Below are positions 56,819 to 58,146 of a stretch of DNA of 64,000 nt, piece after piece. Location of the stretch: NCBI GenBank assembly GCA_963665285.1, contig OY762266.1, forward strand, positions 96,001 through 160,000, read 5' to 3'. The DNA is from Candidatus Poribacteria bacterium. GTDB taxonomy: Bacteria > Poribacteria > WGA-4E > PCPOR2b. Below the pieces are notes generated by a model. The model ran no database searches, was not told the DNA's origin, and saw only the letters and a list, made by a program, of their open reading frames with translations. A program made the translations under genes and the position numbers. The first letter of the stretch is position 1. Every line of letters begins with the position of its first letter.

Positions 56819-58146
56819 GTCCTCCTCCTCATGCGATGTCCTCTATAATTTATTGACGAAAACCGTATGCCTACATTGGCTCTGTGACAGTTCCCATGAA
56901 CAGTATAGTGCGTGTTGCGGCATCATAAATGGCGAAAAAGAAGGGACGATCCACCCGGAAGGGTGGTGGGACAGAGTCTGCCAATATACCAGCAGTGACA
57001 GCGACTGCCTCTGTTCCCTCTTCGTTTACTTCCACAAAGGTTTTATGCTTTACCTCACTGATAAAAAGACTGGGACCCATACCGCTAAAATCGGCACCGC
57101 CACCGAAAGCAACTTCCATCCCGAGTGCTTCGAGTGTGTCGTTAAGCCTTACTTCATATTCCAGTTTGAAGCGAGGCAACATCAGCTCATGTCTCCTGTC
57201 CTGCAACTGCGATATCCAACCCTCCCAATTTTCTGCGTTTAGGTTTCTCAAAAATTTATCGAGGCTGGAATTGCGATTGGGCAGGAAAATATACATGCCT
57301 AACCGCCCATCGCCATACGGTAAGCTGGTTGCTTGAAAATTCTCGCCACGGAGGTATGGGTATTCCCCCTCTCGACGCATCATCTGTACCTGTTTCTCAC
57401 TTCCATCCGACAGATGAAAAGTGTCCGTCCGCGTCTGTGCCTTATCGAACTCATCCTGCCAGTTACCCTTAAAGTAGATGGCGTTAATCAGAAAGAGCAG
57501 TGTTTGCGGGCTAATCCTATCAATGATTTTCTCAATCTTGCCATTCGTATTTGTCTTAACCCATTCGTTGATGGTTTCCGTCGCCTGCGGCGAGCTAAAA
57601 TCGAGCGAGGCAATCTTCGCTCCGAAAAATACCCGATTTCGCTCTAAAAAATCGGGGTTGAATTCAACACTCTGACGGGACCAGATTGAGTTTGCAATTG
57701 AGATTTCAACTTTGGGATCAGGGTTCTCGAGACTGTCTCGTAGTGCCTTGTTGGAATTGTTGATCGTCGATAGGTCTAACCCATCTATCTCTAGCACTTC
57801 TGCCATAGCACGTTCTGTTTCTCCAACAGCACCATTATAGGTCATGGTCAGCGCAATTGAGATACTTAACGGAGAGATAAATATATTTCCTCCCGGGTCT
57901 CGTTCTCGGAGATTGTGCAGCAGCTTGAACCCAAATCGCGTGTTAGCGGATGCAACGCTTGAAACGTCCGGATCTTCGATGGTTTCTAATAAATCACCGA
58001 TGATGTCCTTTGTAGAATTAACATCACCACATCCGAATAAACATAACAGCACTATGCCCATTATACCAATTCGATAATTTTTCATGTCCTCCTCCTCATG
58101 CGATGTCCTCTATAATTTATTGACGAAAACCGTATGCCTACATTGG
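56701..58146. repeat. Tandem duplication with 1267-bp period; 56701-56879 equals 57968-58146 apart from 2 mismatches
   Basis: Identical 52-bp intergenic spacers and nearly identical serpin 5' ends; stop codons at 55604, 56871 and 58138 are evenly spaced. Confidence 0.9.
56871..58085 (-). CDS. Serpin family lipoprotein (copy B; RCL ILAD-S)
   Basis: Same length as and highly similar to copy A; hinge 'EEGTEAVAVT'. Confidence 0.95.
   Translation of the reverse strand: MKNYRIGIMGIVLLCLFGCGDVNSTKDIIGDLLETIEDPDVSSVASANTRFGFKLLHNLRERDPGGNIFISPLSISIALTMTYNGAVGETERAMAEVLEIDGLDLSTINNSNKALRDSLENPDPKVEISIANSIWSRQSVEFNPDFLERNRVFFGAKIASLDFSSPQATETINEWVKTNTNGKIEKIIDRISPQTLLFLINAIYFKGNWQDEFDKAQTRTDTFHLSDGSEKQVQMMRREGEYPYLRGENFQATSLPYGDGRLGMYIFLPNRNSSLDKFLRNLNAENWEGWISQLQDRRHELMLPRFKLEYEVRLNDTLEALGMEVAFGGGADFSGMGPSLFISEVKHKTFVEVNEEGTEAVAVTAGILADSVPPPFRVDRPFFFAIYDAATRTILFMGTVTEPM

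What the first reader, a model, noticed from the sequence alone, without database searches (positions are those of the whole stretch)
56965..57025. Bacterial serpin with a CrmA-like Asp reactive site: possible caspase/granzyme B-type inhibitor
Seen: TEAVAVTAGILAD-S. Established (recalled sequence): cowpox CrmA has TEAAAATCALVAD-C, with a loop one residue shorter than usual and P1 Asp, and inhibits caspase-1, caspase-8 and granzyme B. The Asp here falls in the same register from the hinge. Inference: convergent ability to block host apoptotic or inflammatory proteases, which would be notable in a putative animal symbiont. Val at P11 may lower efficiency, and access to cytosolic caspases is unexplained.
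Basis: partly seen in the sequence, partly recalled or inferred. Interest (0 to 1): 0.72.

Follow-up and report, generated by a model that had tools for sequence, protein, structure and literature searches.

The report
Sponge-symbiont serpin with aspartate bait
A sponge-type bacterium carries three adjacent protease-trap (serpin) genes, and the middle one has swapped its neighbour's lysine bait for aspartate, so it likely traps acid-cutting proteases at the cell surface rather than the host's cell-death caspases; serpins of salt-loving archaea and other microbes carry the same bait.

Summary
Window 56871-58085 (-) encodes an intact lipoprotein-type serpin of a Poribacteria genome, the middle of three tandem copies. 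Asp370 sits 16 residues from the hinge and aligns with CrmA residue 303. Asp370|Ser371 is probably the scissile bond: in 180 of 180 short-loop relatives the Ser is invariant, while the residue before it is Lys 119, Glu 23, Thr 20, Ala 8, Asp 6 or other 4. Miropin traps the caspase-fold protease Kgp at this same position.

Convergence on host caspases is not supported:
- The short loop is inherited by the whole clade, mostly with Lys.
- Glu outnumbers Asp among sister alleles.
- The same short Asp-Ser loop occurs in 39 serpins of other lineages, including haloarchaea.
- A membrane-tethered protein of an extracellular symbiont is unlikely to meet cytosolic caspases.

Hinge Val361 is shared by 14 of 61 non-Lys alleles, so it is not a private lesion. 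Best reading: a bait-diversified copy of a miropin-like surface serpin aimed at acid-specific extracellular or phagolysosomal proteases. No activity was tested. The scan had already noted such a Poribacteria serpin array in another genome (e1-5216307).

The parts
56871..58085 (-). Serpin B, the finding: 404-aa lipoprotein-type serpin with an Asp-Ser bait
   Evidence: ORF; PF00079 E 8.7e-123; best PDB sequence hit miropin 5NCS E 6.8e-74; AF2 pLDDT 93
58029..58085 (-). Predicted lipoprotein signal peptide ending in lipobox Leu-Phe-Gly-Cys19
   Evidence: Read from the sequence; Cys19 nearly invariant in 28 relatives; no dedicated predictor available
56994..57023 (-). Hinge Glu355-Thr364, with Val361 (57003-57005) where most relatives have Ala
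   Evidence: Val in 14 of 61 non-Lys and 1 of 119 Lys alleles
56973..56978 (-). Asp370|Ser371, predicted scissile bond (hinge count 16|17)
   Evidence: invariant Ser with hypervariable preceding residue in 180 relatives; opposite miropin Lys and CrmA 303
56961..56993 (-). Hypervariable part of the reactive-centre loop, Ala365-Pro375
   Evidence: Against paralog A, pN 0.35 over residues 361-375 versus 0.039 in the scaffold; Fisher p 8e-8
55604..56818 (-). Serpin A, 90% identical paralog carrying the clade's common Lys-Ser bait
58138..59475 (-). Serpin C, 55-56% identical paralog with a canonical-length Ala-Ser bait
56819..56870 (-). 52-nt intergenic block with a GAGGAGG ribosome-binding site in front of serpin A
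   Evidence: Identical to 58086-58137: footprint of tandem duplication or gene conversion
58086..58137 (-). Identical 52-nt intergenic block in front of serpin B

Best explanation
This is an intact serpin gene, the middle copy of a three-gene tandem array in a Poribacteria genome, whose product is predicted to be a membrane-tethered suicide inhibitor that likely uses Asp370-Ser371 as bait for acid-specific proteases met outside the cell, not for cytosolic caspases. Shown: ORF, full serpin domain, loop sequence, tandem array, conserved scaffold with a hypervariable loop. Inferred steps: (1) Sec export, lipidation at Cys19 and anchoring, probably in the outer membrane as for miropin; (2) a protease with an acid-preferring S1 pocket cuts Asp370|Ser371; (3) Gly357-Asp370 inserts into sheet A and traps the acyl-enzyme; (4) the array broadens coverage, with Lys (A), Asp (B) and Ala (C) baits on a shared scaffold. 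The most likely targets are Glu/Asp-cutting serine proteases secreted by other microbes in the sponge matrix, or legumain-type enzymes met during phagocytosis. As in miropin, neighbouring bonds may be used by other proteases.
For: Ser371 is invariant in 180 of 180 distinct short-loop relatives while position 16 takes Lys 119, Glu 23, Thr 20, Ala 8, Asp 6, Gln 2, Val 1, Arg 1, the pattern of a P1|P1' pair. In longer-loop alleles of the same clade the X-Ser junction moves as a unit to count 17|18 (P0118, P0274, P0276, P0283, P0291). HMMER aligns Asp370 directly with miropin's Lys at count 16. Miropin inhibits Kgp (clan CD, SI 1.9) by that Lys-Thr bond and is a surface lipoprotein (bioRxiv 10.1101/2025.09.05.674453, passages and Discussion). 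The AF2 model (67-sequence alignment, pLDDT 93) lays Gly357-Asp370 as one strand and matches cleaved miropin at 0.9-1.0 A. The scaffold is under purifying selection (pN 0.039, pS 0.365). In 8 of 9 genomes examined for paralog pairs, a Lys copy sits beside a copy with another bait. The same acid bait occurs in 39 of 47 pattern hits across GTDB, all with the serpin hinge and C-terminal loop motif, including haloarchaea, so the selecting protease is not specific to animals.
Against: No activity data. No cognate protease was found: none of the 78 neighbouring ORFs scanned around the Asp-Ser serpins matched a Pfam S1, S8, C13 or C14 family. Glutamyl endopeptidases cut after Asp far more slowly than after Glu (recalled), so the target class for the Asp allele in particular is uncertain. 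By canonical 17-counting, Ser371 is P1. Loop pN/pS pooled over three alignable paralog pairs is 0.67, which does not show positive selection. AF2 often returns loop-inserted serpins whatever their function. Membrane localisation is read from a lipobox by eye.
Confidence: 0.55

Rival explanations
1. One reading: convergent CrmA-like inhibitor whose biological job is to block sponge caspases (apoptosis or inflammation) or a granzyme B-like enzyme.
For: Asp370 is in register with CrmA 303. P4 Ile and P1' Ser suit initiator caspases (recalled preference). A bacterial serpin can trap a clan CD protease at this register. Sponge CASP7 rises after Vibrio exposure (bioRxiv 10.1101/2024.11.11.623018, passages). 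Sponge-symbiont archaea expand serpins (PMC7848895, PMC6790972; passages).
Against: Short loop predates Asp and is mostly paired with Lys. Only 6 of 180 alleles have Asp, each with a different P4-P2, so there is no conserved anti-caspase allele. Glu is about four times commoner. The same bait occurs in haloarchaea and Balneolaceae. CrmA is described as intracellular (PMC3458838), whereas this protein has a lipoprotein signal and Poribacteria sit in the extracellular matrix. CrmA is not among the 60 best whole-sequence PDB hits shown.
Confidence: 0.1
2. Multi-site broad inhibitor in which Asp is incidental: the working bond is Ser371|Val372 (canonical count 17) or Leu368/Ala369, used against subtilases or elastase-like enzymes.
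For: Canonical count makes Ser371 P1 (antithrombin alignment). Miropin uses three adjacent bonds. Serpins of sponge archaea often lie next to S8 proteases. The genome has two S8 proteases.
Against: An invariant P1 with a hypervariable P2 that toggles between Lys, Glu, Asp, Thr and Ala is a less natural reading. The strand in the AF2 model ends at Asp370.
Confidence: 0.2
3. Spare duplicate whose loop is drifting under relaxed selection; Val361 and Gly366 make it a poor inhibitor or mere substrate.
For: Loop pN is about equal to pS (0.35 vs 0.29; pooled 0.67). Copies with in-frame stops exist in G004 and G011. Val at this hinge position is rare elsewhere (1 of 148 loops). The exact allele has no second cluster among 120 loop-focused hits.
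Against: Scaffold strongly conserved. Hinge Glu, Ala, Ala, Thr and the Ser are invariant in all 61 non-Lys alleles. Val361 recurs in 14 of them. Acidic residues make up 29 of 61 non-Lys baits, more than drift from Lys would suggest (inference).
Confidence: 0.15

Closest known systems
Miropin of Tannerella forsythia (PDB 5NCS, 5NCT, 5NCU, 5NCW)
   Same: Best PDB hit by sequence (E 6.8e-74) and by fold (rmsd 0.9-1.0 A, 38% identity); lipoprotein serpin; same hinge; its Lys at hinge count 16, used by Kgp, aligns with Asp370.
   Different: Miropin has Lys-Thr-Ser with a canonical 17-residue loop; here the loop is one shorter and the residue is Asp. Here there are three tandem paralogs with different baits. 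No activity is known.
Cowpox CrmA (PDB 1F0C, 1C8O, 1M93) and myxoma Serp-2
   Same: [quoted passage not shown]
   Different: Viral, intracellular, minimal serpins; not among the 60 closest PDB sequences shown. The short loop here is a clade trait mostly paired with Lys.
Human SERPINB9 (PI-9)
   Same: Acidic-P1 serpin that inhibits granzyme B (listing); hinge region matches (8ZCR).
   Different: Cytosolic; P1 Glu at canonical count 17 (recalled); targets a vertebrate enzyme.
Expanded secreted serpins of sponge-symbiont Thaumarchaeota (Ca. Nitrosospongia ianthellae, Cenarchaeum symbiosum)
   Same: Secreted serpins in sponge symbionts, proposed to guard against host digestion or to regulate own proteases. 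Three Nitrosopumilaceae serpins carry the same short Asp-Ser loop.
   Different: Those lie beside S8 proteases; this array lies between pgk and a DNA methylase-family gene. The passages read do not analyse reactive loops.

Membership tests
Serpin superfamily (MEROPS I4, PF00079) | Full-length serpin domain and fold | tested here: met
   PF00079 2-370/370, E 8.7e-123; AF2 pLDDT 93, Foldseek TM 0.85/0.96 to miropin
Inhibitory serpin | Hinge consensus P17-P9 ExGTEAAAA (PMC8233489) | tested here: inconclusive
   E-E-G-T-E-A match; Val at P11 and P9 depart from it. P9 Val is shared with active miropin; P11 Val occurs in 14 of 61 non-Lys alleles.
Inhibitory serpin | Forms a covalent, SDS-stable complex with a protease | not testable with these tools
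   Needs recombinant protein
Miropin-like prokaryotic lipoprotein serpin | N-terminal lipoprotein signal peptide with lipobox Cys | tested here: met
   Lipobox ending in Cys19, read from the sequence; Cys nearly invariant; no predictor run
Miropin-like prokaryotic lipoprotein serpin | Surface exposure and use of several scissile bonds | not testable with these tools
   Shown for miropin only
CrmA-type cross-class caspase/granzyme B inhibitor | Asp at 16 residues from the hinge | tested here: met
   (identity of CrmA 303 as Asp P1 recalled)
CrmA-type cross-class caspase/granzyme B inhibitor | Intracellular protein with access to cytosolic caspases | tested here: not met
   Lipoprotein signal; Poribacteria in extracellular matrix; CrmA and Serp-2 intracellular. 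This is a prediction from sequence; delivery by vesicles is not excluded.
CrmA-type cross-class caspase/granzyme B inhibitor | Descent from the poxvirus serpin clade | tested here: not met
   Closest relatives are Poribacteria serpins at 80-90% identity; CrmA absent from the 60 best PDB hits shown of 193
CrmA-type cross-class caspase/granzyme B inhibitor | Measured inhibition of caspase-1, caspase-8 or granzyme B | not testable with these tools
   Needs an assay

The most novel reading that the evidence does not exclude
Short-loop Asp-Ser lipoprotein serpins form an undescribed, repeatedly evolved prokaryotic class (at least 39 GTDB loci in about ten phyla, plus Poribacteria) that traps Asp-specific clan CD proteases: legumain in the phagolysosomes of sponge cells and protist grazers, and possibly caspases reached through membrane vesicles. 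They would be anti-digestion armour, the first cellular counterparts of CrmA.
Probability: 0.2. Interest if true: 0.68.

Novelty: new variant of a known kind. Interest (0 to 1): 0.3.

Why it matters
If the Asp bait works, this is a natural acid-P1 version of the miropin scaffold and a ready reagent for finding which acid-specific proteases sponge symbionts face. The natural allele series (Lys, Glu, Thr, Ala, Asp, Gln, Arg on an 80-90% identical scaffold) is a built-in specificity scan. My literature searches (listings and abstract starts, open-access library only) showed no characterised prokaryotic serpin with acidic P1. The headline claim, a symbiont blocking host apoptosis, has little support, so the finding is a modest variant of a known kind.

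Tried and rejected
Assembly error at the Asp codon: rejected; identical contigs in 3 of 8 runs laid. The other five runs showed Lys- or Glu-type loops or little cover, which does not show absence.

Short loop as a CrmA-like adaptation coupled to Asp: rejected. Of 148 loops from 139 of 150 representative serpins, found with a loop-free query, 25 have Ser at count 17, 54 at 18, 6 at 19 and 63 none. Acidic residues precede the Ser in 4 of 25 short and 7 of 54 canonical loops, Fisher p 0.74.

Cognate protease next door: none among 78 ORFs scanned, chosen by hand from 124 flanking ORFs of the 47 loci.

Own-genome Asp-specific target: not found. No C13, C11 or CHAT match. The C14 protein has Asp-x-Cys motifs typical of Arg/Lys-cutting metacaspases (signature recalled). 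The two C25 proteins look like secretion sortases. None of 12 trypsin-family matches could be assigned acid specificity.

Positive selection on the loop: not shown (pN/pS 0.67 over three pairs; five pairs dropped because ungapped comparison failed, one genome gave a single loop).

Other null results: the first structure job was paralog A on a 3-sequence alignment, pLDDT 32, unusable. Promoter and terminator scans were at chance level. No Rfam hit. The RNA run X21 did not cover the loop, so expression is untested. Tesch 2005 and Simonovic 2000 were not held; only their titles were seen. No complex prediction was run, since no natural partner was in hand.

Full report
Observation. The stretch lies in a 404-aa ORF on the minus strand, 56871-58085 (serpin B), between two other serpins: A at 55604-56818 and C at 58138-59475. 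All three match PF00079 over essentially the whole profile and are the only serpins in the 6.26-Mb single-contig genome. A and B are 90% identical; C is about 55%. An identical 52-nt block with a strong ribosome-binding site precedes both A and B. The loop of B reads EEGTEAVAVTAGILADSVPPP. Val361 is at canonical P11, Asp370 at hinge count 16 and Ser371 at 17. Contigs identical across the loop occur in 3 of 8 public runs laid, so the letters are real. Loop searches against the PDB align Asp370 with CrmA residue 303 (its identity as P1 Asp is recalled) but also with antithrombin 392, which is P2. Register alone is therefore ambiguous.

Organism. A close homologue (85% identity) is named a Candidatus Poribacteria serpin. 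Of 176 genomes of the phylum searched, 142 have a match. Poribacteria were imaged in the extracellular matrix of a sponge (PMC5087111, passages). The host of this genome was not determined.

Which bond is the bait. I pooled 200 distinct sequences and from loci. Of these, 180 have the same short loop and 20 other lengths. All 180 have Ser at count 17. The residue before it is Lys 119, Glu 23, Thr 20, Ala 8, Asp 6, Gln 2, Val 1, Arg 1. The pool is enriched for B-like loops, contains kin, and was not checked for taxonomy row by row. An invariant Ser after a residue that switches among classic specificity determinants is the signature of P1|P1'. In longer alleles of the same clade the X-Ser pair moves together to count 17|18. 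Miropin, the best PDB hit by sequence and fold, has Lys at count 16, aligned with Asp370. It traps the clan CD protease Kgp at that Lys with SI 1.9 and is a surface lipoprotein (bioRxiv 10.1101/2025.09.05.674453, passages and Discussion). The AF2 model of B (pLDDT 93) places Gly357-Asp370 as one inserted strand and superposes on cleaved miropin at 0.9-1.0 A; this is weak support, as AF2 often returns relaxed serpins. I put Asp370 as the main P1 at about 70%.

Is it functional. Between A and B the scaffold has pN 0.039 and pS 0.365, while residues 361-375 have pN 0.35 and pS 0.29. The amino-acid excess in the loop is significant (p 8e-8); the synonymous rate is not different (p 0.77). Pooled over the three alignable paralog pairs, loop pN/pS is 0.67 against 0.14 for the scaffold, which cannot separate relaxed from diversifying selection. 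Val361 is shared by 14 of 61 non-Lys and 1 of 119 Lys alleles but is rare elsewhere (1 of 148), so it marks the variable copies and may slow insertion. In a quick tree of 167 loop-free scaffolds, B groups with its own neighbour A (SH-aLRT 91), and the four Asp alleles then in hand fall in three places (no clade test run). That fits repeated bait switching or scaffold homogenisation by gene conversion.

Is it a convergent caspase inhibitor. Five results weigh against it. First, the short loop is inherited and mostly carries Lys; across representative prokaryotic serpins short loops are common (25 of 148) and not enriched for acid residues (4 of 25 vs 7 of 54, p 0.74). Second, Glu outnumbers Asp 23 to 6, and the six Asp alleles share no P4-P2 motif. 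Third, an exact-pattern scan of 185,579 GTDB genomes gave 47 loci, 39 of them serpins with the same short Asp-Ser loop: 18 Gemmatimonadota, 4 haloarchaea, 3 Balneolaceae, 3 Nitrosopumilaceae, 2 Zixiibacteriota, 2 Dehalococcoidia and 7 others. Some may be symbionts, which I did not determine; haloarchaea are not (general knowledge). Several sit in tandem with serpins bearing other baits. Fourth, CrmA and Serp-2 are intracellular (PMC3458838), whereas B has a lipobox at Cys19. Fifth, granzyme B is a vertebrate enzyme (recalled). In favour: the register, a hydrophobic P4 and small P1', the miropin-Kgp precedent, and sponge caspase responses to bacteria (bioRxiv 10.1101/2024.11.11.623018, passages). 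In-vitro caspase inhibition is therefore plausible, while a biological anti-apoptosis role is unlikely.

Targets. No S1, S8, C13 or C14 protease was found among 78 of 124 ORFs flanking the Asp-Ser serpins. The own genome lacks C13, C11 and CHAT matches. It has a signal-peptide-bearing tandem C14 protein with Asp-x-Cys motifs, which points to Arg/Lys specificity (signature recalled), two sortase-like C25 proteins, two S8 and twelve trypsin-family matches. None is an evident Asp-cutter, so the target is probably exogenous. The Glu-over-Asp allele ratio and the presence in free-living microbes favour microbial Glu/Asp-specific serine proteases; legumain in phagolysosomes is the host enzyme with the right topology (inference).

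Comparison and novelty. It is a member of the serpin family. It works most likely like miropin, and it fails the CrmA-type tests of localisation and descent. Serpin expansion in sponge symbionts is in print for archaea (PMC7848895, PMC6790972; passages), and most prokaryotic serpins have transport signals (PMC8233489, passages). Searches for Poribacteria serpins and for prokaryotic serpins with acidic P1 returned no characterisation (listings only; subscription papers and supplements not seen). The scan had noted a similar three-serpin Poribacteria array in another genome. Verdict: real; a new bait variant of a known kind; interest 0.3.

Noticed in passing
G000:C1:4162281-4165499 (+), L126/L127: Signal-peptide-bearing 1050-aa protein with two C14 caspase-like domains, both with His-Gly and Asp-x-Cys motifs (Arg/Lys-type signature, recalled), followed by glycine-rich repeats. 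A secreted tandem caspase-fold protease; a possible endogenous match for the Lys-bait serpin A.
   Followed up: partly
G000:C1:4254327-4255424 (-) and 5841849-5842976 (+), L248/L249: Two ~1940-aa proteins with gingipain-family C25 domains retaining His and Cys motifs; they resemble PorU-type secretion sortases.
   Followed up: partly
P0307: A serpin 83% identical to serpin B, with the clade's Lys-Ser loop, is deposited as 'Serpin B11 [Geodia barretti]'; probably a symbiont gene mis-assigned to the sponge host.
   Followed up: partly
G004:C1:5032422-5033618; G011:C32:64341-65501: Array copies with an in-frame stop (TAA and TAG), consistent with birth-and-death turnover of these serpins.
   Followed up: no
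L079-L125: The Asp-Ser serpins of other phyla share a hydrophobic residue (often Met or Ile) two before the Asp and Ser-Ala/Gly-Pro after it; L089 and L100 are arrays of three serpins, L095 lies near an M28 peptidase.
   Followed up: partly
G000, G006, G009, G010 arrays (L007, L021, L019, L031): The divergent C-type serpin with a Pro-Pro-Pro-Ala-Ser loop is conserved at the head of the array in these four genomes and forms its own long-branch clade.
   Followed up: partly
window 47064-48971 (-): Two adjacent ORFs match the N- and C-terminal halves of DUF6178 (profile 4-186 and 263-535): a split form of that family.
   Followed up: no
G169: One Poribacteria genome of another family has 7 serpin matches, the largest expansion among the 176 searched.
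   Followed up: no
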